From Escherichia phage EI-SP-GF, in sequence record OR992645.1: a DNA stretch of 64,000 nt; one strand, 5' to 3'. The notes beneath the pieces were generated by a model. That model saw nothing but the letters and a program-made list of their open reading frames with translations, searched no databases and had not been told where the DNA came from. Position numbers and translations under genes: made by a program. Below are positions 17,937 to 50,813 of this stretch, in pieces (position 1 is the stretch's first letter; every line of letters begins with the position of its first letter).

Positions 17937-19397
17937 TTACTTAGCATACTCGATTAATTCCACAGTTTTCCCAAAGCTCGGGATATAATTTTTATTATAC
18001 CCTTCAGTGAGAACCCATAAAGTATCGTACTTTTTCCACTTGTTGTCAACAGCCTTTTGTTCAAAGTTATGCTCAAAGTAGAGGTCGGTAAGGACGATGA
18101 CATCTTTTGCATTCGGTATGTTAGCATCCAGATACTCGAACACGCAGGCGGCTGTTGTGCCCCATGTTGAGTGGACCTCATAGTTGATCATCTCATCGAT
18201 GTTACCGCGAGTGTATACTTTAACCTCTCCAACCTCGGTTGACCAACAGAACATCGTAACCTTAAACTCTTTATACAAATTGCACAACCCGGTGATCTCA
18301 TTGAACATTTTCTTTAAAGTTCTTTGCGAGATCGATCCAGAAACGTCCAAAGCCACTACAATATCTATGGTGTTTTCCGGATTACGACCAGGAACAATAA
18401 TGTGTTGATTCTTGTTTATAGCTCTAACTTTTCGCATTGTGGTGGTCAAAGACCCAGATCGGCGACCAGGTTTTCTGTAGGTTAGCTCGGCCTTTCGTTT
18501 AGACAACATACGTTGCTTAATAATATCTATATAGTTGATTACAGGCTTGCCTCTGTTTTTGACAAACTCGCGCACCGCCTCAGGGCAACGACCTCCTGAA
18601 GCTTGCATTGCTGCTTCCAACATGTCACCAGAGTCCTGCATGGCCTGATCTTTATCAGATTGACTGATTACTGGTTGCGGCTGATCATACCCCATAGCCT
18701 TTCCAAGATCATCACTAGTGCCACCGTTCCCGCTCATGTGATCATCGGTTTGTCGTTTATCTCCTTGGGAGTTCTCGCCTTTACCATTCTTACTTTTACC
18801 GCTATTCTGATCTCTTTGTTTATCAAGAACTGCATAGACGTTCTCAGCAATCCATCCATGAAACTTCATGTCGCAGTAGCAATTAGCTAAGAAGCCAAAA
18901 GGCTTACCTTTTACGAACTCAGTGCTTTTCCCCTTCGGGAAGAAAACACAAGGAGGCTTGCTAAAGTCAACCACAAGACCTGTGTTGATAACGTGATCAC
19001 AAGCAATATTGAACAGTTCCGGCTCAAAGCTTTTACCACGGACCAGATGATCACAGATAATATGCCCCACCTCATGTGACAGAAGGAAGGCCACCTCTTT
19101 CACAGATTTTGGGGAATAGAAAACCTCAGCCATCTCAAACTGCTTGTCAGTCAGAGATGCTTTAAGAATGGTTTTACGCTCATCTGCCAACCCCATAATG
19201 AACTCAGGGCTGTAGTAGATGCGTTTATGGTCTGTTGCCATAGTGGAGCACCATGTGTGGTTTTCTACGAACTGCAACCCTGACAACAGTGTGCCATAAA
19301 ACGGCAGCTTTTCAAGAAGGTACATGCGAGCGGCCTGCAGCATTCGCAAGGCATCATCTTTTTGTGCGGTAATGATTTCTGAACTTCTGCTATCCAT
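17937..19397 (-). CDS. vWA-domain protein with N-terminal HExxH metallopeptidase-like domain
   Basis: HEVGH zinc-binding motif in the N-terminal half; C-terminal MIDAS-like VVALDVSGSIS; start taken at ATG (MDSRSS) with GGAG RBS. Confidence 0.6.
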   Translation of the reverse strand: MDSRSSEIITAQKDDALRMLQAARMYLLEKLPFYGTLLSGLQFVENHTWCSTMATDHKRIYYSPEFIMGLADERKTILKASLTDKQFEMAEVFYSPKSVKEVAFLLSHEVGHIICDHLVRGKSFEPELFNIACDHVINTGLVVDFSKPPCVFFPKGKSTEFVKGKPFGFLANCYCDMKFHGWIAENVYAVLDKQRDQNSGKSKNGKGENSQGDKRQTDDHMSGNGGTSDDLGKAMGYDQPQPVISQSDKDQAMQDSGDMLEAAMQASGGRCPEAVREFVKNRGKPVINYIDIIKQRMLSKRKAELTYRKPGRRSGSLTTTMRKVRAINKNQHIIVPGRNPENTIDIVVALDVSGSISQRTLKKMFNEITGLCNLYKEFKVTMFCWSTEVGEVKVYTRGNIDEMINYEVHSTWGTTAACVFEYLDANIPNAKDVIVLTDLYFEHNFEQKAVDNKWKKYDTLWVLTEGYNKNYIPSFGKTVELIEYAK

Positions 19398-19430
19398 TAA
19401 AACTCCAGAAGGGGCCATTGGCCCCTGTCA

Positions 19431-24679: not shown

Positions 24680-25180
24680 GTGAAAATTAAAATCTTTGCT
24701 ATTATTTTGAGCGCATTTTTATCGCTGCCTGTTGTTGCAGCACCAAAACAAAAAGTATATCACACTTGCAAGCCGTCGGATACTAAGGAAAACATTCTAG
24801 CATGCAATATCTACAGGGAGGCTAGAGGGGATGGCACGATGGGTATGCTGGCATCCGGATTTGCCACACTAAACAGGAAATCCCACCCCAAATACCCAGA
24901 CACTATAAGAAAGATTGTCTACCAACCTAACCAGTTTTCGTGGACAAACCACGGCAAAACTTTTAAGGTGACAGAAAAAGATTCATGGGATCACGCTAAA
25001 AGTCTTGCAAAGATGCTTCTAAAGGTCTATAATAACAACCATGTTGCATACATGGCTATGGATATAACAGGTGGAGCAACACACTACCATACAACAAAAG
25101 TACGACCGAAATGGGCAAAAAAGATGCAGAGGACAGCTCAATTCGGGAGTCATATCTACTACAAGGAGCGCAATAAATGA
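24680..25180 (+). CDS. secreted SleB/CwlJ-like cell-wall hydrolase
   Basis: GTG start with GGAG RBS; N-terminal signal-peptide-like KIKIFAIILSAFLSLPVVAAP; motif CNIYREARGDG...ATLNRK...QPNQFSW resembles the SleB hydrolase family. Confidence 0.55.
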   Translation: MKIKIFAIILSAFLSLPVVAAPKQKVYHTCKPSDTKENILACNIYREARGDGTMGMLASGFATLNRKSHPKYPDTIRKIVYQPNQFSWTNHGKTFKVTEKDSWDHAKSLAKMLLKVYNNNHVAYMAMDITGGATHYHTTKVRPKWAKKMQRTAQFGSHIYYKERNK

Positions 25181-27159
25181 TTGTAAACAGCAATGAAACT
25201 AAAGCGGTGCTAACTGGGAATATGGAGGTAACCCGGGGATCAATTTCTCTGAACAAAGAGACTTTTGGGCTAATCATCAAAGGGATTTATGAAGATAAGG
25301 TACTGGCAAGCTGCCGTGAACCGATCTTCAATGCTGTGGACTCCCATGTTGAGTCTGGACGGGGTGATGTTCCGATCATCATTCACTCTCCTACAGACCT
25401 TGAACCATACTTCTTTGTGCAGGACGTTGGATTAGGCATGTCAGAAGAGATGGTCCGCAACACCTTCATGAACCTCGGAGAGTCAACCAAGCGCAACAGC
25501 AACGCTCTGGTAGGCAATAAAGGTGTTGGTTCAAAGGCCCCGTTCAGTATGGTGGACACTTTCGATGTAATCAGTGTGCACAACGGTGTGGAAAGCACAT
25601 ACCTATTGTTCTTAGACCAGGGTATCCCAAATGTCACCAAGATCCGTGAGCGGAAGACTGAAGAGCACAATGGGGTAAAAGTTCAGTTTCATGTTAAGAA
25701 AGAGCATGTTCTGAAATATCGTACCGCTATTGCATCATGCCTGCGCTATGCAAAATTTCCGTTCACTGTCACCGATCCGATGACGAGCAAGATGCTGGAG
25801 GGGGACAAAGTAGAGGCGCAGTATCGCTACGAGAAAGATGGTTGGAAAATGACTATCCTGAAAGGTTATACCAGCTCTGATGAGAGCCGTGTTGTGATGG
25901 GTCACCAACCTTACCGCTCTAAGTTCCTGGAGACATTGACCGATTACCCTGCAATCTGCGTGGAAATTCCTATTGGGGATTGCAATATTAACCCTGGGCG
26001 TGAATGGACCATAGAGGGCCATGACGACGGTGGATTCCAGGATCGCCTGGAGGCCTTTGTCAAAGAAGGTATACGTCTTCGCGGGGCAGAAGTTGTTGCA
26101 GAACTGGAGACGGCAAAAACCTCCGCAGAAGCACGTGAAATGATGAAGAATAGTGGGGTGTTCGGACACATCTTCGGTAAAAACTTTATGTGGAACCGTT
26201 GGGAAGAAACAGGACTTGGAGACTTAGGCGATTGTGAAATTTTCGCTGGCGGCTTAAATAAAGGCCGCATAGGCTATGCTCGTTATGGAAAGTCAGAGTT
26301 CTTACGGGGAGTCTATTTAGTATTTAACGACGGAGACGGCAAATATAACCGAAATAAGTGTAACTACTTAAGCGAGATCACCGGACGCAACGTTTTCTAT
26401 TGCCGTAACACGGATCTGGTGGAAGAGTTTAAAGAAGCGGCACACCACCCGTTCTTTGCAGATACGGTCAAATTGTTATCAGAGCTCCCTCGCCGACCTG
26501 TCAAGAAAGGTGAAACAAAAACTCGTTATGAGCCAGGCTATTGGGTTAAAAAACTTGAGAAGGATGGTTACTTCCGCCGTGAACGTATTACTAAGGCAGA
26601 GTTCCGGAAGATTAAACACTGCATCCCTTATGAGGGTGATATCCAACGTGGAAGTTGTTGGCTGGGGCAGATGAGTAACATCTACCAGCAAGATTATGAC
26701 CGTGTACGTGCGGCACTTCAGATTCCTGAAGGTGAAGATCTGTATCTGGTATCTGAATCTCGTCTGCTTTGGACTGATCCTGATTGCCAGTATGTTACAG
26801 AGAAGAATGTGGAGCACCTGTTGAAAGAGGATGCTTGGAAATTCTTACTGACCCGTGCAGCAAATGAGACTTCTTATGACAGCCTGTATAGACAATTAGG
26901 GAAAATTATTCCCATGCAAGATTTTGGAAATTATCGGCCACATTTCCACAAGTGGGAAGGTAACACCACGTGGAAGCACAGTGAGCTAAATCATCGTGCC
27001 AAAATCTTAATCGCCAACCGAGTTAAATGCGGGAAGGCCTATATTGCAAGATTGGAAAAGAAATACCCACTTTTGAAGCATGTAGGCTTGAAATATTGGG
27101 ACACCCCTGCTATGATTGAATACCGTGAGCTGATTGATACAAAGAATAACACCAAATAA
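25177..27159 (+). CDS. rIIA: rIIA-like protein with GHKL-type ATPase domain
   Basis: N-box-like EPIFNAVDSH, G1-like QDVGLGMS, G2-like GNKGVGSKAPFSM; as far as I recall these match the T4 rIIA N-terminal ATPase motifs; followed by a co-oriented partner gene. Confidence 0.6.
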   Translation: MIVNSNETKAVLTGNMEVTRGSISLNKETFGLIIKGIYEDKVLASCREPIFNAVDSHVESGRGDVPIIIHSPTDLEPYFFVQDVGLGMSEEMVRNTFMNLGESTKRNSNALVGNKGVGSKAPFSMVDTFDVISVHNGVESTYLLFLDQGIPNVTKIRERKTEEHNGVKVQFHVKKEHVLKYRTAIASCLRYAKFPFTVTDPMTSKMLEGDKVEAQYRYEKDGWKMTILKGYTSSDESRVVMGHQPYRSKFLETLTDYPAICVEIPIGDCNINPGREWTIEGHDDGGFQDRLEAFVKEGIRLRGAEVVAELETAKTSAEAREMMKNSGVFGHIFGKNFMWNRWEETGLGDLGDCEIFAGGLNKGRIGYARYGKSEFLRGVYLVFNDGDGKYNRNKCNYLSEITGRNVFYCRNTDLVEEFKEAAHHPFFADTVKLLSELPRRPVKKGETKTRYEPGYWVKKLEKDGYFRRERITKAEFRKIKHCIPYEGDIQRGSCWLGQMSNIYQQDYDRVRAALQIPEGEDLYLVSESRLLWTDPDCQYVTEKNVEHLLKEDAWKFLLTRAANETSYDSLYRQLGKIIPMQDFGNYRPHFHKWEGNTTWKHSELNHRAKILIANRVKCGKAYIARLEKKYPLLKHVGLKYWDTPAMIEYRELIDTKNNTK

Positions 27160-27169
27160 GGAGACAGTT

Positions 27170-28375
27170 ATGATTTTCATCTACGAACACTTCAAAACTC
27201 GTAAAGAAGCACGCGACCGCCGTGCAGAACTTGAGAAGAAGGGTTTCACATGTGCCATTGAGAAAGGTGACACAACCTGGACACTGGCAGTTGGTGCCCC
27301 AGAGTTGTTCGATCCTGACCGTGACAGCGTCTGCTACACCCGTGAGGATTTTGAAACCCGCGAAGAGGCCCGTTTATTTCGATACGGTCTGGAAGATAAC
27401 GGTAAGTACGCTATGATCTTAGATTTAGGCGAAGGTTCCGTTAAACGTTGGGGCGTGGTATACCCACTGTGTGTTGTTCACGGTGTGGGGTTCACTGGGG
27501 TAGCAATCAAGTCAGAAGAACCTTTAGTAGAAGTCAAAGATCCGGTGCTGGAGGTGGTGAGCAGTGTGTCTCAGCAACAGACTCGAAGCATCGAGCCTTT
27601 GGTGGTTATTTGCGGGGAACTCCTCCAGATCACCTGCAACGAAGGCATTTTTGAAATTCGCCGCAGTGAAAGTGAGGAAGTTTACCAGAAAGTCTTCGAC
27701 CATATCTCTGTTCAGGAATATGACGAGGCAATTGGTGAAATCCTTGTCTGGCTGGAACGCAAGAATGAGTTCACCACACTTGCAGACAACCTGATCATGA
27801 AAGATGGTAAGCTCTACTACTACGGTGTAGAGATGCGATCCACCATTGCAAAGAAAATTGAGAAAGATTATGCAGACGGAACACTGGATGACCGCTATGT
27901 GAAATTCCTCGTTCGCCTGCTACGCAATCCTTCTGCAAAATCTGTAAACATGCTCTACGATTTTATGCAGGCAAACGACATTCAGATTGCAGAAGATGGT
28001 CGAATCATTTGCTACAAAGGGGTTCAGTTTAACGGCGACAAGTGGGTGGATTGGCACAGTGGTAAAGTCCCACAATACCAGGGGGCTTTTGTATCCATGC
28101 CTCGTAACTTTGTAGAGGATGATCCGGAAGCTGCATGCTCTTATGGCCTGCACTGTGCCAGCAAAGAGTATGCAAAGAGCTACGGAACTGTGATGACGGT
28201 TATGGTTGACCCTGCCGATGTAGTTAGTGTACCTTACCAACACAACAGCGCCAAGTGTCGTGCATGCCGCTACGAAATCGTAGTAGCTCCAGAATCACGC
28301 AAAGATGGCGACCCAATTGAGTACGTGGTTGACCGCGACGGTAATACTATCGACATTATCTACGAGGAGGCGTAA
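27170..28375 (+). CDS. rIIB-like protein (assigned by synteny only)
   Basis: ATG with AAGGAGA RBS, directly downstream of and coupled to the rIIA-like gene; no motif recognised. Confidence 0.4.
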   Translation: MIFIYEHFKTRKEARDRRAELEKKGFTCAIEKGDTTWTLAVGAPELFDPDRDSVCYTREDFETREEARLFRYGLEDNGKYAMILDLGEGSVKRWGVVYPLCVVHGVGFTGVAIKSEEPLVEVKDPVLEVVSSVSQQQTRSIEPLVVICGELLQITCNEGIFEIRRSESEEVYQKVFDHISVQEYDEAIGEILVWLERKNEFTTLADNLIMKDGKLYYYGVEMRSTIAKKIEKDYADGTLDDRYVKFLVRLLRNPSAKSVNMLYDFMQANDIQIAEDGRIICYKGVQFNGDKWVDWHSGKVPQYQGAFVSMPRNFVEDDPEAACSYGLHCASKEYAKSYGTVMTVMVDPADVVSVPYQHNSAKCRACRYEIVVAPESRKDGDPIEYVVDRDGNTIDIIYEEA

Positions 28376-29745
28376 TGGAAAAAGGGCAGTACGATGTAGG
28401 CACAGATGCTGCCCTTGTTGCAATCATGAGTGGTGAGAATGTCTTCGTAAGTGGACCTGGTGGAACCGGGAAGACATATCTTATCAACATGATCCAGTCC
28501 ATGTATGGAGACTCTTGCATAACGGTTGCCCCGACAGGGGTAGCCGCTTTAAACGTTAATGGAGCAACAGCGCACCGAACTTTCGATCTTGCCGCAGGTG
28601 TGAGCATGGAGTCAGACTGGACAGCAATAAGGGCAAAAACAGCAAAGCCTCTGAAAAGCAAGGCATTTACCATCCTAATTATCGATGAAATTTCTATGAT
28701 CCGTGCTGACAAGTTCATAGAGATGGATAGAAAACTCCGCTTTCTTCGGAAAAATGACAAACCTTTCGGGGGCATTCAGGTGTTATTGTTTGGAGATTTC
28801 TACCAAGCACCTCCGGTTGTCTCTTCTATGGAGAAGGAAGCCTACTTCAACTTCTACCACACAGATCTGTGTTGCTATACAGAGTCTTGGGAGGATCTTA
28901 ATCTTCACAATATAGCTTTAGTAGACCAGTTCCGTCAGGAATCTGTTCGCTTCGCCACAATGTTGAACTGTGTTCGTGAAGGTCGTCGCATAAAAGAGGT
29001 TGTAGCAGAGCTTAACACTCGTTGCTATCATGGTGGTGTCCCAACCGATGCCTTGACCATCTGTGCCACCAATAAGCAAGCAGAAGAGGTGAACAGACGT
29101 TTCTATGATGCCATCAAGGCCCCAGAGAAGACCTACATTGGTAAAATGAAAGGTAAGTTCCCCTCCACACTACCTGTGGAGCAGGAAATGAGGCTGAAGA
29201 TAGGGATGAAGGTTATGATAACCTCAAACGATGTTGACCCGACACACAAAGTTCCGTACTATGTCAACGGGACACGCGCCACAGTGGTAAAATTCAAGAC
29301 CAAGTCTGTGGTGGTTGAGCTGGAAGACGGGACACAGGTTGAAATCGAGCCGAGATTGTGGGAGAATAACGAGTACAAACCTTCCCAGAGGTACAATATT
29401 GCCGAAAGGAAGATGGAGAAGTTCATAGAGAGGGTTGTGATCGGGTCTTATGAGCAACTTCCTTTGAAATCTGGGTACGCAGTAACATCGCATAAAAGTC
29501 AAGGACTTACGTTAGATTGTTACAACCTAGACCTCGGAAAGAACGGAGCTTTCTCTCCCGGAATGACGTATGTTGCCTTGAGTCGGGTTAAGACGATACA
29601 AGGAATAAACTTGTTGCGTCCATTAAGAGAGGTGGATATTATTGTTGACCCGAGAGTCGTAGAGTTTTATAATACAACTTTCCCTGGCTTAGACGAGAAA
29701 GTCAGGAAAGATTTTGAAACTAGAGCAGAAAAGGGGGACGTATGA
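28375..29745 (+). CDS. Dda/Pif1/RecD-like superfamily-1 DNA helicase
   Basis: Walker A VSGPGGTGKTY, Walker B ILIIDEISM, C-terminal VTSHKSQGLTLD motif typical of RecD/Pif1-type helicases. Confidence 0.7.
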   Translation: MEKGQYDVGTDAALVAIMSGENVFVSGPGGTGKTYLINMIQSMYGDSCITVAPTGVAALNVNGATAHRTFDLAAGVSMESDWTAIRAKTAKPLKSKAFTILIIDEISMIRADKFIEMDRKLRFLRKNDKPFGGIQVLLFGDFYQAPPVVSSMEKEAYFNFYHTDLCCYTESWEDLNLHNIALVDQFRQESVRFATMLNCVREGRRIKEVVAELNTRCYHGGVPTDALTICATNKQAEEVNRRFYDAIKAPEKTYIGKMKGKFPSTLPVEQEMRLKIGMKVMITSNDVDPTHKVPYYVNGTRATVVKFKTKSVVVELEDGTQVEIEPRLWENNEYKPSQRYNIAERKMEKFIERVVIGSYEQLPLKSGYAVTSHKSQGLTLDCYNLDLGKNGAFSPGMTYVALSRVKTIQGINLLRPLREVDIIVDPRVVEFYNTTFPGLDEKVRKDFETRAEKGDV

Positions 29746-31387: not shown

Positions 31388-32152
31388 TTGAAATTTATCT
31401 ACAAAGACCACTACCACAAAGGTGTTGTGTGGAGTCTATTTGACGGGTCTGGTGGTGCAGTTATTGACTGGGCAAAAGCTGGGTACCTGTGCCTGTGCTT
31501 TAATGCAGAAGGTGCTGACCACGGTAGTTATGCAGAGGTGATAACCGATCATCCCAATATTCACTATGTGGATTATTGGATTGACCCATGGTTCCCTCAG
31601 GAAACTTTTTGCATGTACCCAGCTCCAGACTTTATTCTTGCATTTCCTCCGTGCACGCATTTAGCGGTGTCGGGTGCTGCACATTTTAAGAAAAAGCTGG
31701 CTAAGGACCCCCTGATCCAAATTAATGCTGTAAAGGATGCTCGGGTTGCGGAAGAGCTGGGAGAGATTTACGATTGCCCGTGGCATGTAGAGAATCCTGT
31801 TGGTGTTATGTCCACACTGTGGCGCAAACCTGATTACCGTTTTCATCCTTCTGACTATGGCGGGTATTTACCGGAGGATGATGTAAACCCCTGGTTTCCT
31901 GAATTTATAGCTCCACGTGATGCCTATCCAAAAATAACTTGCGGCTGGATAGGTAATGGATTTATAATCCCGGCCACAAAACCTGTCCCGCAAATAGTTG
32001 ACGCGGTTAGCGGGTATTCCATGCAACACGCCAAGCTGGGTGGAAAGAGTGCAAGAACGAAGATGATCCGAAGCCTCACACCACGTGGCTGGGCAAAAGC
32101 CGTATTCTTAGCAAATGAGCCTGTAGTAAGGAGCAGAATTAATGGGAAGTAA
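31388..32152 (+). CDS. C5-cytosine methyltransferase-like protein (short, PCT variant)
   Basis: Motif I-like SLFDGSGG, motif IV-like FPPCTHLAVSG, motif VI-like HVENPVG in canonical order; TTG start 7 nt after AGGAGA; only about 254 aa. Confidence 0.45.
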   Translation: MKFIYKDHYHKGVVWSLFDGSGGAVIDWAKAGYLCLCFNAEGADHGSYAEVITDHPNIHYVDYWIDPWFPQETFCMYPAPDFILAFPPCTHLAVSGAAHFKKKLAKDPLIQINAVKDARVAEELGEIYDCPWHVENPVGVMSTLWRKPDYRFHPSDYGGYLPEDDVNPWFPEFIAPRDAYPKITCGWIGNGFIIPATKPVPQIVDAVSGYSMQHAKLGGKSARTKMIRSLTPRGWAKAVFLANEPVVRSRINGK

Positions 32153-34220
32153 ATTTATGGCATCTGCATACAACCGTTTCGGTGAGCCAAACCCGAAAGC
32201 AACTAAGTATAAAAGTGGGGGAAGTGTGAAACGAGACTATCGTGATGAAAAAGAAGTTGAAACTGTAGAGACTGTTTTAGAAAATACTAAAATTGTCCCT
32301 GTTCCACAACAAAATATCGGACTGATGGCTGCACAGTATTTCGGTGTACGATCATCCCTATCCCAAGAGGATGGTGTAACTGTTACTGCCACCTACTTCC
32401 CGTATTATGACCGCTACGGTAATCTATCTGGCTTTAAAAAGCGTGACTGGACAATCCCTAAAGAGCAAAGGGGCCATTTCTCAGTTGTTGGCATAGTAAA
32501 AGCCAACTCCCAGATGTTTGGTCAAAAGCTGTGTGCATCTTCCAACAACCGTAAGCAGATTAACGTTTGTGAGGGAGAAGGTGATGTTATTGCAGCATGG
32601 CAGGCTGCATATCAGGTGCAAGTAAAAGGAATTCTCACCAATGCTAAAGCCCCAGCGAAGGTGGAGCAGTGGGCTAAAGAGGTCCAGGATGGGATCGATG
32701 CAGTTATCAACGGCGGCGATCTTGCAGGAAAACCCTGCCTACCTTTTGTTGGAATTAACTGCGGGTGTGCAAACGCAGTAGACACTTTTGCGAACAATGA
32801 GAAATTTATCCGTAGCTACGGAACAGTAGTCCTTGCAATGGACAACGATGCAGCTAACGAGGTAGAGAAGCAAAAACACGTTATCAAAGGTGTTGAAGCC
32901 ACACATAATATCGCGGCATTTTTGATGGCTGATAACGTTTACCACGTGGAATACCCCAGTGAGGTAAACGACCCTGACGGTGTAAAAGATATCCGTGACA
33001 TGCTGAAGGCTAAAAAGCTGGAAGATATTGTCAACATGTTCCGTCACCCAGTCAAATATGTGCCTGATGCTGTATCTGATTTAGAAGACTTCTCCATTGA
33101 ATCTCTTCGTAAGAAGACTTCTAATGGCGTAGATATCAGCGCGGAGTTCCCTAAATTGCAGAAGATGCTGAAAGGACTTCACAAAGGCACCTTGATGATG
33201 CTGACAGGCCCATCTGGCGGTGGTAAAACAACTGTAGCCAAGAAACTAGAACACTGCATTGCAAAATACTTGATGGATCCTACATGCCCTAAAGCCGATG
33301 ATTATGAAGAGGATGATCGCCTGTGTCTGATTCACCTTGAAGAGGACCCTGAGGAAGCAATTAACTCTCTATACGCCAACCAGTTGGGGTTTGATGTTAA
33401 AGAGTTTGTTGAAGACCCTAGTCAGTTCCTGACTGATCAGGAGCATGCTGAGATTCACCAATCTTGGGCCAAGGCTGGAAAAATCAAAGTGTTCAAGCAT
33501 TTTGGGTCTATTCCTGTAGATGAGTTGATCACTAAGCTTAAACAAATGGTGTGTCTGTATCACTGCCGTTATATTGTGCTGGATCACCTATCCATGGTAA
33601 TTTCAGGGCTTAATGTTAAGGATGAGCGAAAAGAGCTGGACATGGCTATGACCCAACTAGCCGCGTTCTGTAAGCAGTTTAATGTATTTATCTTGGTGAT
33701 CGCTCACCTGAAACGCACAGAGATTGTGCCTCCAAAGGACAAGGATGGGAATCCGTTACCTTTCTGGTATCCTGTACGAAAAGAGAACCTTCGAGGTAGT
33801 GCCGGATTGGAGCAACTTAGCTGGGTAGTTGTTGGGGTGGAGGCAGAAGAGATGGTGGATCGTTCCCGTGGACGTGTCCGACTGGTAGGTCTTAAAAACC
33901 GCCCAGCAAAAACGTTAGGCATTGCGGATACCTTAGTTATGGATCCTCACACAGGTAAGTTCCATGATGCCAGCAATTGGTACTGGGACAAAGAAATGCA
34001 GATGTTCACAGACGGCGAAGGCGGGGAGGTTGTTTGGAGACCTCAAGCTATGTTTGAGGATCAAGAGCACGCAGTTGTAGAAACACCTGTAGGTAGGGTT
34101 GTGGCTGATAAGGTTGTAACTCCTACTGTTAACCCTGTTGACACACAAGAAGACCTTCCGTATGATGATCCGTCCTCTGACCCTGTTCCCGGTTTTGAAG
34201 ACGATGAAACACCTTTTTAA
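32142..34220 (+). CDS. primase-helicase (TOPRIM primase fused to DnaB-like helicase)
   Basis: TOPRIM-like CEGEGD and LAMDNDAANE; helicase Walker A LTGPSGGGKTT and Walker B YIVLDHLSM; arrangement as in T7 gp4-type proteins. Confidence 0.65.
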   Translation: MGSKFMASAYNRFGEPNPKATKYKSGGSVKRDYRDEKEVETVETVLENTKIVPVPQQNIGLMAAQYFGVRSSLSQEDGVTVTATYFPYYDRYGNLSGFKKRDWTIPKEQRGHFSVVGIVKANSQMFGQKLCASSNNRKQINVCEGEGDVIAAWQAAYQVQVKGILTNAKAPAKVEQWAKEVQDGIDAVINGGDLAGKPCLPFVGINCGCANAVDTFANNEKFIRSYGTVVLAMDNDAANEVEKQKHVIKGVEATHNIAAFLMADNVYHVEYPSEVNDPDGVKDIRDMLKAKKLEDIVNMFRHPVKYVPDAVSDLEDFSIESLRKKTSNGVDISAEFPKLQKMLKGLHKGTLMMLTGPSGGGKTTVAKKLEHCIAKYLMDPTCPKADDYEEDDRLCLIHLEEDPEEAINSLYANQLGFDVKEFVEDPSQFLTDQEHAEIHQSWAKAGKIKVFKHFGSIPVDELITKLKQMVCLYHCRYIVLDHLSMVISGLNVKDERKELDMAMTQLAAFCKQFNVFILVIAHLKRTEIVPPKDKDGNPLPFWYPVRKENLRGSAGLEQLSWVVVGVEAEEMVDRSRGRVRLVGLKNRPAKTLGIADTLVMDPHTGKFHDASNWYWDKEMQMFTDGEGGEVVWRPQAMFEDQEHAVVETPVGRVVADKVVTPTVNPVDTQEDLPYDDPSSDPVPGFEDDETPF

Positions 34221-34278: not shown

Positions 34279-37056
34279 ATGAGTATGTGGTCTTTCGACC
34301 TGGAGGCCTCTGGTTTACTAGAAGACCTAGATCTTTATTATCACTGCGGCTTGTTTAAAGAGCTGAATAAGAACCGTTTTATGCTGTTCCTTCCTCTAAA
34401 TGACCGCACACACTACTCTGAAGAGGATATAGAGAAGGCTAAGAACTTTATTCTGGCAAAGAAAACTCTTTATAAAGATTTTGAAGTTCGCATAGCAGAT
34501 TTTTCAGAGTTGGAAGGTTGGCTTACAGGCAATTCTGACTGGTCACCCACAGCTTTGAACTGCCACAACTGCTACAGCTACGACTTTATGCTGATGGAGA
34601 GATTGTCCGGTATTCATTTTGATATGTTCCGTGACCCTAAGTGTATGGGGACTATCAACGACCACCAGGTTAATCTGTTTGATACGTTGGCGATGAGCCG
34701 AATCTTGTGGCCTGATCGCCCTTTACCAAAAGGTTGTCCGGACTCTGTATTCAACCCGGTTACTAAGAAAATGCAGCCTGTTGGTCCTCACGGACTTATG
34801 GCATGGGGCTACGCCCTTGGTAACCAGAAAGTTCAAATTGATGACTGGCGCGATCTTCCGTTGTGGAAGTATGTGGATCGTGTATTCGAGGACGTTATCA
34901 TCCAGGAGCTGCTCTGGAAAGAGCTGGTAGCGGAATCAAAAGGTGTATTCTACGGCAAATCTGACATGCAGAACTTTATGTACGATCCAGCCAAAGAGAA
35001 GCCGAAAGGGTTCAAGAAGATCACCTGGAAGAACGCATTACGTCGAGGCATGCTGCAGCACTTCCTGATGGAGCTGCAGGCCCGTCAGGGTGTATACTTC
35101 GACATAGATGGAGCTATTGCTTTACGTGACCGTTGCGATGCGTGGATGAAAGAAATAGCTGATCGTGTTGAACCACAACTGCCTTTAAAAGAGCTGTCAA
35201 TGTCTCAGCGGCCCAAGTTCCCTGAAAAGCCGTTTAACCAAGACGGGACAATCTCTAATAATGGTTGGAAATGGTTAAAAGATAAGCTTGGCTATCCTGT
35301 AGACATGAGCGCTTTAGAGTTCAAAGCCCCGCCTAAGAGAGCATTTACCTCTACAGGGGATGTCAGCAAGATGGGGATAAAATGGTGTGAAGAGATGGGC
35401 TGCAAAGACCCCGATAAGATGGCTGATTTCTTGAGAGGCTATATTAAGGGCACTTCCACACCACACCCTTTGCCTAAAGAGCTGATGGATCAGGCAATAA
35501 GTGATCTACAGCAGAAGCGAATGCCGGACTGCAAGATACCTATGAAAATCAGCAATCAGGACGACATTAAGCGGTATCTGATCAGCGCTGGCTGGCTCCC
35601 GACAATGTGGAGAACTAAGGATGTAACTAAAGACAGCAAGAAGAAAGCTCTACCTGATGCAGATGTTGATGCACGAGTATATGCTTATATGGACGAGCTT
35701 TTAGAGTCAGAGTATTGTGACCTAATTATCAACTTCTGGAACAAAACTGATGCTAAGTTCCAGACAACCGTGCACAAGTTCCGAAGCTTTCCTAACTCCG
35801 AAAGGATTAAAAAGGAAGTGTTCGGGAAAATACGTAGAAAAGCCAGGGCACTTATTACTTCTCCGCAACTGAAAGATACGTTTGGACACCTGTGTCCGAA
35901 TCTTGAAAAATTGAACGGAGAGATGGCTAAAGATATCGTCTTGTGGTTATCATTGCGAAACCGCAGATCGGTCCTTGACCCAATCAAGGAGGATAAGGTT
36001 GATACTGGTCTTCTTAATCACCCACGTTTGAAGATTGACCATAAGCTTCCTGCTAAAAGTTCTGGGCTAACAAACACTTCCAGACAGAAACACAGTATTT
36101 GTGCAAACATGCCTAAACCATCTCCTAAAGTGGTTATGGGTAAAGAGATGCGTAGTCTATGGGGTGTTCCTCCTGGATACTTTCAGATCGGTATTGACGG
36201 GTCCAACTTAGAGCAGCTTATCGGGGCTTGGGGTGCCTTTGAGTTCGACAACGGCCTGTATTATGATGTTGTAAGTAACGGAGACGCACACCAAAACAAT
36301 GCTGAGGCATATACAAAAGTAGCAGGCAGAGAGGTGTCCCGTAACGACGGTAAACCTATCACGTATGGTGTTATGTACGGGGCACAAAAAGATAAAGTTG
36401 CAGATATGCTGGACATCTCTCCAGAGTTGGGGCAAAGGGTAATAGATGCACTTTGGGATGCCAACCCCGGTCTTAAGGGGCGCAAAGAGGATCTGGAGAA
36501 ATTCTGGGAAGCAACAGGTAAGAAGTTTATCTACTCTTTTGACGGTCATGCTATTTGGACACGCTCTAAACACTCTTTGCTTAATGCATATCAGCAAAAT
36601 GGCGGTGCATCACTGTGTGACCTAGTTGGGATACTCATGCACCACCAGATGGTGAAGCGTGGATGGTATGATGAGGGTGTTCGTCGTATTATCTATTACC
36701 ATGACGAATATCAGCTTCAAGTGCCTGACACACCTAAGTATAAAACCGTATACACCTTCGACACAATTGAAGAGCTGGAAACATTTAAAGCCCAACAAGA
36801 GGCTAAACTTCATGTGTTCGACGGTCATAAGTACAAAAAGGCACGCAAAGATGAGGACGGAAACGAAGTGGTTGACAAGGATGGAAATACGGTATACGAT
36901 CCTATCTTGAACGATGACGGAAAGCTTGAACTTATCTGGAGCCCTGTGGGCGAAATGGTGGTGCATTGCTTCTGGCAGGCTTCTAAAATGATGGGCGTTC
37001 CGTTCCAGATCACAGGTGAATACTTGTGCGGTCGTAACTGGGGCGATTGTCACTAA
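34279..37056 (+). CDS. family-A DNA polymerase with 3'-5' exonuclease domain
   Basis: Exo I-like FDLEASG near the N-terminus; motif B-like R..GK.ITYGVMYG; motif C YYHDEYQ; 925 aa. Confidence 0.75.
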   Translation: MSMWSFDLEASGLLEDLDLYYHCGLFKELNKNRFMLFLPLNDRTHYSEEDIEKAKNFILAKKTLYKDFEVRIADFSELEGWLTGNSDWSPTALNCHNCYSYDFMLMERLSGIHFDMFRDPKCMGTINDHQVNLFDTLAMSRILWPDRPLPKGCPDSVFNPVTKKMQPVGPHGLMAWGYALGNQKVQIDDWRDLPLWKYVDRVFEDVIIQELLWKELVAESKGVFYGKSDMQNFMYDPAKEKPKGFKKITWKNALRRGMLQHFLMELQARQGVYFDIDGAIALRDRCDAWMKEIADRVEPQLPLKELSMSQRPKFPEKPFNQDGTISNNGWKWLKDKLGYPVDMSALEFKAPPKRAFTSTGDVSKMGIKWCEEMGCKDPDKMADFLRGYIKGTSTPHPLPKELMDQAISDLQQKRMPDCKIPMKISNQDDIKRYLISAGWLPTMWRTKDVTKDSKKKALPDADVDARVYAYMDELLESEYCDLIINFWNKTDAKFQTTVHKFRSFPNSERIKKEVFGKIRRKARALITSPQLKDTFGHLCPNLEKLNGEMAKDIVLWLSLRNRRSVLDPIKEDKVDTGLLNHPRLKIDHKLPAKSSGLTNTSRQKHSICANMPKPSPKVVMGKEMRSLWGVPPGYFQIGIDGSNLEQLIGAWGAFEFDNGLYYDVVSNGDAHQNNAEAYTKVAGREVSRNDGKPITYGVMYGAQKDKVADMLDISPELGQRVIDALWDANPGLKGRKEDLEKFWEATGKKFIYSFDGHAIWTRSKHSLLNAYQQNGGASLCDLVGILMHHQMVKRGWYDEGVRRIIYYHDEYQLQVPDTPKYKTVYTFDTIEELETFKAQQEAKLHVFDGHKYKKARKDEDGNEVVDKDGNTVYDPILNDDGKLELIWSPVGEMVVHCFWQASKMMGVPFQITGEYLCGRNWGDCH

Positions 37057-39849: not shown

Positions 39850-40260
39850 ATGGTGTCTCCTTTATGTTGTTCAAATAAAATCGGAGATTCCACAATGGAA
39901 CAAATGAACGATCAAGCGTCGGTTGCGATGAACGAGCAAGAACAACCTCAAGAATTTTTCTTAGGGTTAAGCAAAGATCAAGTGTCTCTTCTGCTGGTAC
40001 TTTCTTCTTTTATGGGAAGACTTCAGGAGCTCACACAACAACCAGAGGCTGAACAGTTATTTCAGGCTCTGCGCGAAGAAGAAAAATATCGTCGTTTGGA
40101 TTATGCCTTAGGTTGGGTAGCTCAGCAACGAGATATGCTAATGGCCCTTTCTGGGACGACAAGTTTTGCAATGGGCCTGTTGGCTCAAGTGCAGGACAAA
40201 TTAATTCAAGCAGGGTTTGCACACACAGCAAACACCAACGAAGAACAAGGAGACAAATAA
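39850..40260 (+). CDS. hypothetical protein
   Basis: 136-aa ORF, RBS AAGGAGA. Confidence 0.4.
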   Translation: MVSPLCCSNKIGDSTMEQMNDQASVAMNEQEQPQEFFLGLSKDQVSLLLVLSSFMGRLQELTQQPEAEQLFQALREEEKYRRLDYALGWVAQQRDMLMALSGTTSFAMGLLAQVQDKLIQAGFAHTANTNEEQGDK

Positions 40261-41531
40261 TGAGCGTTATTCAACAATTTGCCAACCCGATGAATCCGCG
40301 TGAAACTGTTTTACTGGCTCACGGTATGATTAAACGTGTCAGCATCAAGCCCATTAAAGGTGCTGATCCTACAACAGGTATTAAAACCACTGTGTGGCAA
40401 GGTAAGAAAATTGAATCCAGCCACACCATCTCTTTACTGATTTCTGAACTGGACTCCTCTGATAACCTGCTCCAAGGTGGTGAAGAAGTTTGGATCAGTA
40501 TGGGTGATAAACTGCTTAAGCATGGTCATCAAGACTCCGTCTCTGTTAAAATTGACGACAAGTGGGAAACCGTAACGCCAGGATGGATCGTAAATATCCC
40601 TTTGAAGGCAAACGAGCATAACGGCAAGACCTACTACAAAGGCTCACTGGCTAAAATGGTTAAGTTGGGGGCAGGAGAGGCTCCAGCAGCGCCACAGCAA
40701 CAAAAACAGCAACAAGGCACACAATCACAAGGCCAGAAGCAGAAACCTCAGCAGAATGCCAATCAGGACGTTTTACGCATCTATGGTGATGTGACTCAGA
40801 TTGTTGGCAACGTGGTTACTGTCAATGATCACAAGATTGGTGAAGGTGCTATGGTTGTCACGGATGAGCAGCTTAAAGACCTGGTGGTAGGTGGTCGTGT
40901 TGCAGCCATTGTTGACAAAGACACCGGAAACATTATCAGTGGTTTCAAAGCCTACCCACCTAAGGCAGAGAACGGTACACAAGGTTCTGGTGGTAAGCGT
41001 AAATCCTCTTACGACCCCATCGGTGTAGAGACAGGGCACAGTATCAATGCATTGCAGATCATCCTGGATCGCGGGTTTAAGATTGACAGCCCTTTAGATG
41101 TGGCTAAAACACTGCACGTGGTCACCATCGAGCTTAAGAAAGAGTACGCTCAAGCCACTAACCGAACTGAAGATGAAGTAGGTGCCAGTGTTGGTAATGC
41201 GGTATTGAACGCTTGTCGCCGTATTGACAAGAAAACGAAAGTTGATGATTTTGCAGTAGCAATTACTGCAGAGGCAAAAGATGTCTTGACTAATCTTGCT
41301 GAACCGTTGTATGATTGGATCAAGAACGGTGCTGGAGCCACTGACCATCAAGAGCCTCAAGCTGCCAAACAGGAAGCCGCCCCACAGCAAAACACTGTAG
41401 ACGCTCCTCCTGTAGATGATGCGGAAGACGACCCGATGGATCAGAATCCGGCACAGTACGACTTCTGTGATGACATACCTTTCGCTCCGGTAGGTCTGCA
41501 ATATGGTAAAAGTAGAATCTACGCATTGTAA
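40260..41531 (+). CDS. putative ssDNA-binding protein with Gln-rich linker and DDIPF motif
   Basis: Start at ATG overlapping the upstream stop (TAATG); low-complexity Q-rich linker; acidic C-terminal region containing DDIPF about 17 residues before the end; sits between polymerase and nuclease-like genes. Confidence 0.4.
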
Positions 41532-42126
41532 GAGGTGCATCAAGTGCGGAGAGGTGAAAAACCTCTCCGAGTTCTACAAACATCCAAAGATGGCTGACGG
41601 TCATCTTAATAAGTGCAAAGAGTGCTGTAAGAAGGCCAGCAGAGAGGCTGACCAGTTTTCCCACAACTCTTCGGAAAAAGGTGTAATACGCGTGCTGTAC
41701 AAGTCTCAAAAGTGCAACAGCAAGCAAAGAGGTCACCCTCCTCCGACTTACACCAAAAAAGAGTTTAAGGAGTGGCTATACCTAAACGGTTACAAAGAGT
41801 TGTATGATCAGTGGGTAGCCAGCGGATACGACAAAAGGAAAAAGCCTTCTTGTGACAGGATAGATGATTTCAAAGGGTACTCTTTTGATAATATCCGTTT
41901 AACGACTTGGGGAGAAAATAAAGATAAGCAGACGGAGGATATTCTGTTGCATAGAAGCACCAGCGGTAGACGGTGTAAAAATGTAAGGAGGCTGGACATG
42001 AATGGCAACGTTCTTAAAGAATGGGTATCCCACAATTCTTGCCGAAGAGAAACAGGGATATGTGTTGATTACTACATTCATGAAAAAATTCCAGCTCCCG
42101 ATGGATACCTCTATGAATACTTCTAA
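41503..42126 (+). CDS. HNH-like (degenerate) endonuclease / zinc-finger protein
   Basis: N-terminal CxxC...CxxCC cluster; later CDRIDD...[12 protein letters not shown] resembles an HNH core with the His replaced; start uncertain. Confidence 0.4.
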
Positions 42127-42141
42127 CATTTAGTTAACATA

Positions 42142-42170
42142 GCCCTGCCCGAAAGGGTGGGGCATTTTTG
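42142..42170 (+). terminator. Rho-independent terminator (copy 2 of the duplicated 22-nt hairpin)
   Basis: GCCCTGCCCGAAAGGGTGGGGC followed by ATTTTT; identical to the hairpin at 31342. Confidence 0.55.
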
Positions 42171-50189: not shown

Positions 50190-50813
50190 ATGACTACCGT
50201 TAACATTACCACAGGTTACAATTTAGCTTTCGACGTGCTGACCGACGAACAAAAAGAAAAAGCCGTGGAAATGGTCCGCGAAAGAGAAGAACACAGCGGG
50301 GATAACTTTTTTGCAGAAAGTGTAATTGAGTACTATAAAGAATATGTTTTTCCAGAGTACGGCCTTGAAGATACCGATGTACATTGGTCAGGCTTTTGGT
50401 GCCAGGGTGACGGCGCGTCAATCAGTGCGGAAAACGTGGATTTAGAAAAATTCTTGCGTAAAGTCAAGTCTCTGACTAAATTCCGCTCAATTCGTCACTT
50501 GTTCGGCACAATGCACGATGGCGAGTTATCCGCAAGTGTTGAGCGTGATCCATATAGCCGCTATAGTCACGAAAACACTGTAAACGGGTACATCGATACT
50601 ACATGGCTAGACCTGACCACCAAGCAAGAAAACAAAGTGGAAGATCTGGAAGAGCTGATCACCGAGACGGTACGGGAGTTATCCCGCAAGGTTTACGTAG
50701 ACCTGGAGGAGGCCTATCTAGAACAGTTCACTACCGAAAACCTGATCGGCCTTATTGAGGCCAATGATTGGCGGTTTGATGTCGATGAACACGGTGAGAT
50801 GACTTTTTCATAA
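50190..50813 (+). CDS. acidic early-region protein (207 aa)
   Basis: RBS ATAGGAGAAAA; D/E-rich throughout. Confidence 0.5.
   Translation: MTTVNITTGYNLAFDVLTDEQKEKAVEMVREREEHSGDNFFAESVIEYYKEYVFPEYGLEDTDVHWSGFWCQGDGASISAENVDLEKFLRKVKSLTKFRSIRHLFGTMHDGELSASVERDPYSRYSHENTVNGYIDTTWLDLTTKQENKVEDLEELITETVRELSRKVYVDLEEAYLEQFTTENLIGLIEANDWRFDVDEHGEMTFS

What the first reader, a model, noticed from the sequence alone, without database searches (positions are those of the whole stretch)
40260..41531. SSB-like protein carrying an internal E. coli-type DDIPF motif followed by a 17-residue extension
The acidic C-terminal region ends ...[29 protein letters not shown] is the extreme C-terminal tip of E. coli SSB, through which it recruits partner proteins. 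Its presence in a phage protein suggests mimicry of the host SSB tail, but here it is not terminal, which is unusual; the extension may be real or may reflect a frameshift or an alternative stop.
Basis: partly seen in the sequence, partly recalled or inferred. Interest (0 to 1): 0.4.

Follow-up and report, generated by a model that had tools for sequence, protein, structure and literature searches.

The report
Phage SSB-like protein, tip capped by extension
This rV5-type phage gene encodes a predicted single-strand-DNA-binding protein that copies the E. coli SSB tail, and here the tail carries 15 extra residues that arrived with a selfish endonuclease gene yet match a conserved, apparently undescribed add-on found on many phage SSB tails.

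Summary
ORF 40260-41531 (+) encodes 423 aa ending ...[24 protein letters not shown]. The extension is 15 residues, not 17.

The extension is not a frameshift. About half of sequenced relatives end at DDIPF-stop. In the others, including this window, a 640-nt insert sits between the Phe codon and the terminator. It carries the 15 codons plus an EndoVII/HNH-type homing endonuclease gene, whose start codon lies inside the extension.

The extension is also not junk. The motif AP[VI]GLQY-x4-hydrophobic follows DDIPF in at least five different phage SSB cores, mostly without any endonuclease, and its codons vary while the amino acids stay fixed. I found no paper describing it, and its function is unknown. 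My best guess is that it masks or redirects the host-mimicking tip.

The parts
40260..41531 (+). SSB-like protein gene (423 aa), orthologue of Bas52_0087; PHROG 4477
   Evidence: ORF and sequence. PHROG 4477 E=2.5e-172, with the profile ending at residue 408. 395/408 identical to Bas52_0087, same synteny.
40260..40679 (+). N-terminal beta domain (res 1-140), predicted OB fold
40686..40763 (+). Q-rich disordered linker (res 143-168)
   Evidence: pLDDT <50; sequence [20 protein letters not shown].
40770..40955 (+). Second small beta barrel (res 171-232), called OB-fold-2 in the preprint; absent from the short family members (phi92 gp156 type)
   Evidence: AF2 strands 171-232. Deleted in P0061-P0069 in alignment A2. 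Preprint Fig. S6 legend.
41016..41324 (+). Four-helix bundle (res 253-355) with the conserved GVETGH..N and [12 protein letters not shown] motifs; holds D252 and Y351, the DRT10-escape positions in Bas52
   Evidence: AF2 helices 253-270, 278-300, 304-321, 328-355, pLDDT 86-95. Near-invariant D252, G255, G259, H260, N263, G308, G312. Escape mutants D252V and Y351C.
41325..41468 (+). Acidic intrinsically disordered linker (res 356-403)
   Evidence: pLDDT <50; composition read from the sequence.
41469..41483 (+). DDIPF, E. coli SSB-type C-terminal tip, internal in this allele
   Evidence: Sequence. P407 and F408 invariant. 41 of 68 close and 105 of 146 distant family representatives end exactly here.
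41484..41528 (+). 15-codon extension [15 protein letters not shown] (type B of the AP[VI]GLQY-x4-hydrophobic module); stop codon at 41529-41531
   Evidence: Absent from ECP2303, Bas52 and other HEG-less alleles. Motif conserved in distant homologues and in canonical SSBs.
41503..42126 (+). Free-standing homing endonuclease gene (207 aa; N-terminal Zn ribbon plus EndoVII/HNH-type nuclease). Its ATG lies in the Tyr-Gly codons (TATGGT) of the extension, in the +1 frame, with a 29-nt overlap
   Evidence: PHROG 1035 'endonuclease VII' E=1.4e-40, weak HNH PHROG and PacI matches. Present in 51 of 115 Vequintavirus records, absent from the others at the same site. Annotated 'putative homing endonuclease' in the BASEL phages.
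42142..42163 (+). Intrinsic terminator closing the transcription unit; in HEG-less alleles it follows the DDIPF stop directly
   Evidence: Terminator scan; alignment of HEG+ and HEG- alleles.
39850..40260 (+). Upstream gene (PHROG 7310, function unknown), coupled by a TAATG overlap; syntenic with bas52_0086

Best explanation
The ORF is the SSB-like protein of the rV5 group. Its layout is OB fold, Q-rich linker, second beta barrel, four-helix bundle, acidic disordered linker, then an E. coli-type DFxDDIPF tip.

Inferred function: it coats phage ssDNA made by the adjacent helicase, primase and polymerase module. It oligomerises through the helical bundle. Its tip engages or competes for host proteins that dock on the SSB C-terminus, such as ExoI/SbcB.

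In this phage the gene is in its occupied allelic state. A 640-nt insert lies between the Phe408 codon and the stop/terminator. The insert carries 15 extra codons and a free-standing EndoVII/HNH-type homing endonuclease gene (HEG). The HEG's Shine-Dalgarno-like GG run and ATG are embedded in the extension in the +1 frame, so it is probably translated by coupling to the highly expressed SSB-like gene.

The 15 residues belong to a conserved portable tail module, AP[VI]GLQY-x4-hydrophobic, that phages append after DDIPF on several unrelated SSB cores. Because host partners hold the last Phe in a pocket flanked by basic residues, the extension most likely masks or re-targets the tip while adding a second docking motif. 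The HEG uses this module as a landing pad and carries it into DDIPF-terminal alleles.

Shown: orthology, predicted fold, allele polymorphism, insert boundaries, motif conservation.
Inferred: ssDNA binding, partner recruitment, masking, translational coupling, homing.
For: Identity and fold:
- PHROG 4477.
- 97% identity and synteny with Bas52_0087, the genetically defined DRT10 trigger predicted to be SSB-like.
- Replication genes lie upstream on the same strand, and the window holds no canonical SSB.

Tip:
- P407 and F408 invariant.
- 41 of 68 and 105 of 146 relatives end at [IVLM]PF.

HEG allele:
- ECP2303 and Bas52 end ...DDDIPF-TAA. Identity with the window resumes at TT(C/T)TAACAT after the HEG.
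- 51 of 115 records carry the HEG.
- The more distant relatives L008 and L099 are also extension+ HEG+.

The extension is a selected module:
- Among homologues retrieved by full-length similarity, GLQY is 27/27 invariant. The first seven extension residues are 90% identical even where protein bodies are below 35% identical.
- All synonymous codons are in use.
- It occurs without any HEG in phi92 gp156, Kashira, L012, L015 and L101, and in most of 47 IMG/VR SSB loci.
- It occurs on PF00436 SSBs and on at least three other cores.
- HEG-less type B copies keep GKSRIYAL with a TCG/AGT serine switch. That switch breaks the +1 frame, so the extension frame is the constrained one.

Pocket requirement: the ultimate Phe sits in a hydrophobic pocket flanked by basic residues that bind the acidic residues and/or the terminal carboxyl (PMC3632105).
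Against: - No biochemical data exist for ssDNA binding or partner binding by any member of the family.
- Within Vequintavirus and its near relatives I saw the extension only together with the HEG. In this lineage it could therefore persist simply because it carries the HEG start.
- The HEG also exists without the extension, with its own ribosome-binding site (slur16, L005).
- AF2 gives the tail pLDDT below 50 and docks it nowhere.
- No partner for the extension has been identified. It fits neither the beta-clamp motif nor any other motif I know.
- Extension-plus and extension-minus phages both thrive, so the module is dispensable.
Confidence: 0.75

Rival explanations
1. The extension is a neutral by-product of the endonuclease insertion. 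It is read-through into the 5' end of the mobile cassette and is kept only because it holds the HEG's ribosome-binding site and start codon. It has no function as a peptide.
For: In Vequintavirus and its near relatives, extension and HEG come and go together. The HEG ATG sits in the QYG codons, and HEG+ copies use TAT where three HEG-less type B copies use TAC. The same arrangement, with a 29-nt overlap and a homologous HEG N-terminus, is found next to a canonical ssb in phage morffagbaw.
Against: Most extension-bearing genes have no HEG downstream. APxGLQY is held at the amino-acid level with saturated synonymous variation, including type A copies with no ATG. Length is fixed at 14-17 residues in all 27 extension-bearing homologues (19 of them exactly 15), with no premature stops. 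HEG-less type B copies conserve the extension frame, not the HEG frame.
Confidence: 0.15
2. The extension is an artefact: a frameshift, an assembly error or a miscalled stop, and the true protein ends at DDIPF.
For: Bacterial SSB tips are terminal, and many relatives of this protein end at DDIPF.
Against: The identical frame and 15-codon extension appear in about 50 independent GenBank genomes and in metagenome contigs. There is no stop codon after Phe408 in any frame-0 reading. The difference from DDIPF-terminal alleles is a clean 640-nt insertion, not an indel of 1-2 nt.
Confidence: 0.01
3. The protein is not a working SSB. It is a decoy whose main job is to present many SSB-like tips and soak up or misdirect host SSB-interacting proteins such as ExoI. 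The OB folds would serve protein contacts or only weak DNA binding.
For: No Pfam SSB match. The core shows no sequence similarity to any solved SSB. The tip is the most conserved element. The preprint links the orthologue to SbcB/ExoI dosage and DRT10 activation.
Against: The fold resembles ssDNA-binding OB domains. The gene sits by the replication module. No other SSB candidate lies in the 64-kb window, though the rest of the genome was not seen. In this allele the tip is capped, which fits poorly with a pure tip-decoy role.
Confidence: 0.15
4. The extension is a removable cap or a degradation tag. It would be clipped after Phe408 to release an active tip at the right time, or its hydrophobic end (..IYAL, ..LLMCM) would target the protein to a host protease.
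For: Type B ends (YAL, YALA, YALS) loosely recall the YALAA end of the ssrA tag; that comparison rests on my own knowledge. The extension is disordered in the model.
Against: There is no known protease site, no supporting data, and type A ends (..LLxCM) do not resemble ssrA.
Confidence: 0.05

Closest known systems
Bas52_0087 of Escherichia phage RudolfGeigy (QXV84166.1), the phage trigger of the DRT10/UG17 reverse-transcriptase defence (bioRxiv 10.64898/2026.04.29.721553)
   Same: 395/408 identical and at the same genomic position. Same predicted OB-OB-four-helix-bundle-disordered-tail layout. D252 and Y351 are conserved, and the tip is FxDDIPF.
   Different: Bas52_0087 ends at DDDIPF and has no endonuclease gene downstream. 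The window protein has DFCDDIPF plus 15 more residues and an overlapping HEG. The preprint does not mention extended alleles.
E. coli SSB and other PF00436 bacterial or phage SSBs
   Same: OB-fold core (predicted), a long low-complexity linker, and an acidic tip ...DFDDDIPF that is near-identical in many family members.
   Different: No PF00436 match. There is an extra beta barrel and a four-helix bundle in place of the tetramer-forming OB core. In this allele the tip is not C-terminal.
Phage SSBs carrying the DDIPF + APIGLQY... tail (Salmonella phage c341 gp30, Escherichia phage morffagbaw Ssb, Vibrio phage SSBs, phi92 gp156)
   Same: The same tail module after the tip. morffagbaw also has a Zn-ribbon HEG overlapping the last 29 nt of ssb.
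   Different: Different N-terminal cores: PF00436 or others. Most carry the type A ending (P[AQ]LLxC[MI]) and no HEG.
Free-standing phage homing endonucleases, as in the T4 seg/mob genes (comparison from general knowledge)
   Same: An optional gene inserted between conserved genes, with presence/absence polymorphism among near-identical phages, an HNH/EndoVII-type nuclease, and expression tied to the upstream gene.
   Different: The insertion lies exactly at the stop codon and lengthens the host protein by a conserved peptide. Cleavage and homing have not been shown.
T7 gp2.5 and HK620 SSB C-terminal tails
   Same: Phage SSBs whose last acidic-aromatic residues recruit partner proteins. In HK620 SSB the last six residues, NDYPPF, are needed to stimulate Sak4. 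T7 gp2.5 F232 is needed for polymerase binding.
   Different: In those proteins the aromatic residue is terminal. Here it is followed by 15 residues.

Membership tests
PHROG 4477 / Bas52_0087 family (rV5-, phi92-, Kashira-type SSB-like proteins) | Full-length sequence match to the family profile | tested here: met
   E=2.5e-172, residues 1-408 on profile 1-393 of 393. 328 representatives at E<=1e-3 in the 50%-clustered library.
PHROG 4477 / Bas52_0087 family | Orthology to the experimentally studied member (identity, synteny, conserved escape-mutation residues) | tested here: met
   395/408 identical, D252 and Y351 present. Same flanking genes.
OB-fold nucleic-acid-binding superfamily | Five-stranded beta-barrel fold similar to known ssDNA-binding OB domains | tested here: met
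OB-fold ssDNA-binding proteins | Binds single-stranded DNA | not testable with these tools
Bacterial-type SSB (Pfam PF00436) | Match to the PF00436 OB domain | tested here: not met
   No Pfam hit at E<=1 other than two sub-threshold unrelated families. A profile against PDB sequences matches only the SSB tail.
Bacterial-type SSB (Pfam PF00436) | Acidic tip D-D-D-I-P-F at the extreme C-terminus with a free carboxylate | tested here: not met
   DDIPF is present but followed by 15 residues in this allele. The feature is met in the HEG-less alleles of sister phages.
Free-standing homing endonuclease gene | Presence/absence polymorphism at one precise site among otherwise collinear, near-identical genomes | tested here: met
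   640-nt insert with clean boundaries. 51 of 115 records HEG+.
Free-standing homing endonuclease gene | Encodes a nuclease of a known homing-endonuclease superfamily | tested here: met
   PHROG 1035 endonuclease VII E=1.4e-40. Weaker matches to HNH PHROGs 2255 and 3377 and to PacI, E=0.05. No Pfam hit.
Free-standing homing endonuclease gene | Cleaves the empty allele and is over-inherited in mixed infection | not testable with these tools
   Needs an experiment.
SSB tails with the DDIPF + AP[VI]GLQY-x4-hydrophobic extension (class defined in this work) | Motif directly after the IPF tip, 14-17 residues, with a hydrophobic end | tested here: met
   [15 protein letters not shown] matches. The identical GKSRIYAL ending occurs in PF00436 SSBs L037 and L072.
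Beta-clamp-binding motif (QL[SD]LF / QLxLxL) | Pattern match in the extension | tested here: not met
   [11 protein letters not shown] and LQYPALLMCM do not fit the consensus. This was an inspection of the sequences; the consensus is from my own knowledge.

The most novel reading that the evidence does not exclude
The AP[VI]GLQY-x4-hydrophobic tail would be an undescribed, independently selected short linear motif. Phages of gamma-proteobacteria bolt it onto host-mimicking SSB tips, on at least five different SSB cores. Its role would be to hide the tip's terminal Phe-carboxylate from some host partners or defence sensors (ExoI/SbcB-linked DRT10 is the obvious candidate) while docking another, still unknown, conserved partner. 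A family of Zn-ribbon homing endonucleases would have adopted its coding sequence as landing pad and translation start, and so drive the capped allele through phage populations.
Probability: 0.45. Interest if true: 0.7.

Novelty: new variant of a known kind. Interest (0 to 1): 0.5.

Why it matters
The free C-terminal Phe of the SSB tip is treated as indispensable for recruiting more than a dozen genome-maintenance proteins. A conserved 15-residue cap on that tip is therefore unexpected. It occurs on hundreds of phage SSBs and on this SSB-like defence trigger, and it points to a layer of partner selection or immune evasion that has not been studied.

The system is directly testable. The BASEL collection already holds near-isogenic phages with the cap (Bas49, Bas50, Bas54) and without it (Bas52). 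Bas52's uncapped protein is a known trigger of DRT10 whose output depends on ExoI, a tip-binding protein.

The locus also shows a homing endonuclease that changes the protein product of its host gene. That is a way for a selfish element to spread a phenotype.

Tried and rejected
- **Frameshift or alternative stop.** Rejected: the same frame appears in dozens of genomes, and the difference from short alleles is a clean 640-nt insert.
- **Extension as a pure HEG scar.** Weakened by extension-plus, HEG-minus genes in phi92, Kashira, L012, L015, L101 and most canonical SSB loci.
- **L009 derived from an extension-plus allele by a 23-nt deletion that recreates F-TAA.** Rejected: the alignment with L101 shows homology simply ends at the Phe codon and the downstream DNA is unrelated.
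- **'DFC' versus 'AFD' upstream of the tip as a strict HEG-linked marker.** Rejected: L096 has DFCDDIPF-stop and no HEG.
- **Pfam on the protein and on the HEG.** Nothing usable.
- **Literature searches.** Searches for DDIPF plus phage, and for the strings IGLQY, IPFAP and VGLQY, found no description of the extension. The HK620 and DARNA papers concern terminal tails only.
- **Per-phage DRT10 sensitivities of Bas49, Bas50 and Bas54 against Bas52.** Not available in the preprint text or the held supplements.
- **RNA hairpin over the HEG start.** Only marginal, z=-2.1.
- **Clamp-binding motif and ssrA-like degron.** Considered by eye; poor fit.
- **A second copy of the HEG or a canonical SSB in the window.** None found.

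Full report
**What is in the sequence**

The ORF at 40260-41531 on the + strand is intact. It starts at an ATG preceded by AAGGAG and overlaps the stop of the upstream gene as TAATG. It encodes 423 residues.

DDIPF is residues 404-408 (nt 41469-41483), at the end of an acidic, proline- and glutamine-rich stretch. It is followed by [15 protein letters not shown] and a TAA.

A second ORF, 41503-42126, starts in the +1 frame inside the extension. A strong terminator lies at 42142-42163.

**Origin of the window and identity of the protein**

The locus is 90-99% identical to 115 GenBank phage records, nearly all Vequintavirus (rV5-like). Pfam finds nothing. PHROGs places the protein in family 4477, 'unknown function', at E=2.5e-172, and the profile ends at residue 408, the Phe of the tip.

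A full-text search turned up a 2026 preprint (bioRxiv 10.64898/2026.04.29.721553). In it, escape mutants of BASEL phage Bas52 against the DRT10 (UG17) reverse-transcriptase defence map to Bas52_0087, with substitutions D252V and Y351C. The authors predict that protein to be SSB-like, with two OB folds, a four-helix bundle, a disordered C-terminal region and an FDDDIPF 'C-tip'. They link its effect to host ExoI/SbcB.

Bas52 is phage RudolfGeigy. Its gene bas52_0087 sits in the same gene order as the window ORF, and the two proteins are 395/408 identical, including D252 and Y351. So the SSB-like reading of this family already exists in the literature, as a prediction.

**Independent test of the fold**

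I ran AlphaFold2 on an alignment of 30 homologues. It gave:
- a confident all-beta domain (residues 1-140);
- a disordered Q-rich linker (143-168);
- a small beta barrel (171-232);
- a four-helix bundle (253-355);
- a disordered tail from about residue 362 to the end.

A family profile searched against PDB sequences matches only the last 26 residues of E. coli SSB. The core is therefore not a PF00436 SSB, although the tail is SSB-like.

The gene lies about 3 kb downstream of a Dda-like helicase, a primase/helicase and a DNA polymerase on the same strand. No canonical SSB is detectable in the window. ssDNA binding itself remains untested.

**The tip**

In 30 homologues spanning 26-97% identity, P407 and F408 are invariant and D403 and D405 nearly so. 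This is the best-conserved stretch of the protein. Many members read ...PPMDFDDDIPF, as E. coli SSB does.

- Of 68 complete homologues from the first search, 41 end exactly at [IVL]PF.
- Of 146 further representatives from an exhaustive profile search of a 50%-clustered library, 105 do. Most of the rest end in acidic-aromatic variants.

A terminal tip is therefore the norm for the family.

**Why the tip is internal here**

Phages ECP2303 and Bas52, and roughly half of the genus, lack ORF 41503-42126. Their protein ends ...DDDIPF-TAA, followed directly by the same terminator.

Aligning the two states shows a clean 640-nt insertion in the window. It runs from the first base after the Phe408 codon (41484) to the last sense codon of the second ORF (42123). 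Identity resumes at TT(C/T)TAACAT.

The inserted ORF is a 207-aa protein with an N-terminal zinc ribbon. It matches PHROG 1035 'endonuclease VII' at E=1.4e-40, with weaker HNH and PacI matches. BASEL annotators call it a putative homing endonuclease. It is present in 51 of the 115 records.

This is the signature of a free-standing homing endonuclease gene (HEG). Its ATG lies in the Tyr-Gly codons of the extension (CAATATGGT), 29 nt before the SSB-like stop, with a GG-rich stretch upstream. That arrangement suggests translational coupling, which I infer rather than show.

Other allele combinations exist:
- slur16 and a metagenomic relative have the HEG without the extension, using their own ribosome-binding site.
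- One lineage has DFCDDIPF-stop without the HEG.
- More distant relatives at 44% and 75% identity have both extension and HEG.

**The extension is not junk**

Of the 69 homologues, 27 carry an extension of 14-17 residues with the pattern [AS]P[VI]GLQY-x4-[ILV][YHFW]x[LIVM]. These include proteins only about 30% identical to the window's, such as those of Serratia phage Kashira and Salmonella phage SSBI34, and phi92 gp156.

This sample was gathered by full-length similarity, not by the motif. In it, GLQY is 27/27 invariant. The first seven extension residues are 90% identical even between proteins whose bodies are below 35% identical.

Several of these genes have no HEG at all. A terminator, a methyltransferase gene or a convergent tail-fibre gene follows instead (L012, L015, L016, phi92, Kashira, L101).

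A 26-residue tail query finds 243 phage records covering at least 80% of it. Many are annotated single-stranded DNA-binding proteins, for example Salmonella phage c341 gp30, Escherichia phage morffagbaw Ssb, and Vibrio phage SSBs.

A degenerate DNA pattern for IPFAPxGLQY gives very different yields by collection:
- 47 loci in IMG/VR;
- 11 loci in representative genomes of 185,579 bacterial species;
- about 25 plasmid records, mostly Vibrio and Salmonella replicons of 48-104 kb.

The carriers include PF00436 SSBs and at least three other cores without Pfam matches.

Codon usage at A, P, G, L, Q and Y covers all synonymous codons. In the pattern-selected set the amino-acid identity is imposed by the search, so there only the synonymous saturation is informative.

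Two flavours are visible:
- Type A is APIGLQY-P[AQ]LLxC[MI]. It is common on canonical SSBs, has no internal ATG and no HEG.
- Type B is AP[VIF]GLQY-GKSRI[YH]AL, the window's kind.

HEG-less type B copies (L037, L063, L072) keep the peptide GKSRIYA[LI] while changing Ser from AGT to TCG and Tyr from TAT to TAC. Those changes destroy the +1-frame start and alter the +1-frame peptide. The extension's own frame is therefore the one under constraint.

**How extension and HEG relate**

HEGs with the same N-terminal zinc ribbon (CxxCG...EFY...[10 protein letters not shown]) but different nuclease domains sit immediately after DDIPF or DDIPF-extension stops in unrelated phages (L011, L027, morffagbaw, L067, L078, L080). 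The conserved coding end of SSB-type tails thus seems to be a landing hot spot.

The most economical reading has three steps. First, the extension arose as a functional tail module on phage SSBs. Second, one HEG lineage came to overlap its 3' end. Third, that HEG carried the type B extension into the DDIPF-terminal gene of rV5-like phages, where it now segregates as a unit. The order of these events is inferred.

**What the extension might do**

Structural work on SSB partners places the ultimate Phe in a hydrophobic pocket. That pocket is flanked by basic residues that bind the acidic residues and/or the terminal carboxyl group (PMC3632105). Fifteen added residues should weaken or change that docking.

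Simple masking would not need a conserved sequence. The motif is attached to several unrelated cores in phages of many gamma-proteobacterial hosts. I therefore think it contacts a conserved external partner, probably a host protein, while altering which tip-binding proteins are engaged.

Phage SSBs are sensed by several defences: DRT10 for this very family, and DARNA, Hna and Retron-Eco8 for others. Capped and uncapped alleles coexist in near-identical phages. An arms-race role is plausible but untested.

AlphaFold leaves the tail disordered. The motif does not fit the clamp-binding consensus, and I found no paper that mentions it.

**Verdict**

The finding is real. Its 'SSB-like protein with a host-type tip' reading is supported, and was already made for the orthologue in a 2026 preprint. 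The artefact explanations are excluded.

The new elements are:
- the explanation of the internal tip by a homing-endonuclease-linked allele;
- the recognition that the extra residues belong to a widespread, selected and apparently undescribed tail module.

The function of that module is the open question, and the BASEL phages offer a ready experimental system for it.

Noticed in passing
L011, L027, L031, L067, L078, L080 (just downstream of the SSB-type stop codons): Homing endonucleases share one N-terminal zinc ribbon (CxxCG..K...EFY..[12 protein letters not shown]) but carry different nuclease domains. They sit directly after DDIPF or DDIPF-extension stops in unrelated phages. The tail-coding end of SSB genes looks like a general HEG landing site.
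   Followed up: partly
L060 and L065 (canonical SSB with type B extension): The +1 frame begins MEKAESTH/MAKAGSTR, like the window's HEG. It then continues into an unrelated 97-aa ORF, which may be a remnant of a lost or replaced HEG.
   Followed up: no
GenBank MG0656xx records (hits H6, H7, H108, H109, H140): Sixteen records named 'Campylobacter phage' are 91-94% identical to E. coli rV5-like phages across this locus. The host label looks doubtful.
   Followed up: no
P0109, P0131, P0132, P0136, L027; P0121, P0167: Several distant family members end ...IPFN or ...IPFS, with one extra residue after the tip. This is a minimal departure from the terminal-Phe rule.
   Followed up: no
window 41490-41522: A weak RNA hairpin pairs the SD-like GUAGGU upstream of the HEG start with AAUCUAC and leaves the ATG in the loop. 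Its energy is only 2.1 sd below shuffles.
   Followed up: partly
window 17937-19418 (-): A 493-aa HNH endonuclease (PHROG 1314) lies on the opposite strand among structural genes. It may be another mobile endonuclease.
   Followed up: no
window 25177-28375 (+): rIIA-like and rIIB-like genes lie directly upstream of the Dda-like helicase (28375-29745). The primase/helicase (32142-34220) and DNA polymerase (34279-37056) follow.
   Followed up: no
L101 versus L009 (phi92/phAPEC8-type relatives): Two near-identical genes differ by presence of the extension. Homology stops exactly at the Phe codon and the downstream terminators are unrelated. The end of the tip coding sequence therefore acts as a recombination junction even without a HEG.
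   Followed up: partly
window 50190-50813 (+): An ORF of 207 aa, the same length as the HEG, shows no detectable similarity to it. It was not characterised.
   Followed up: no
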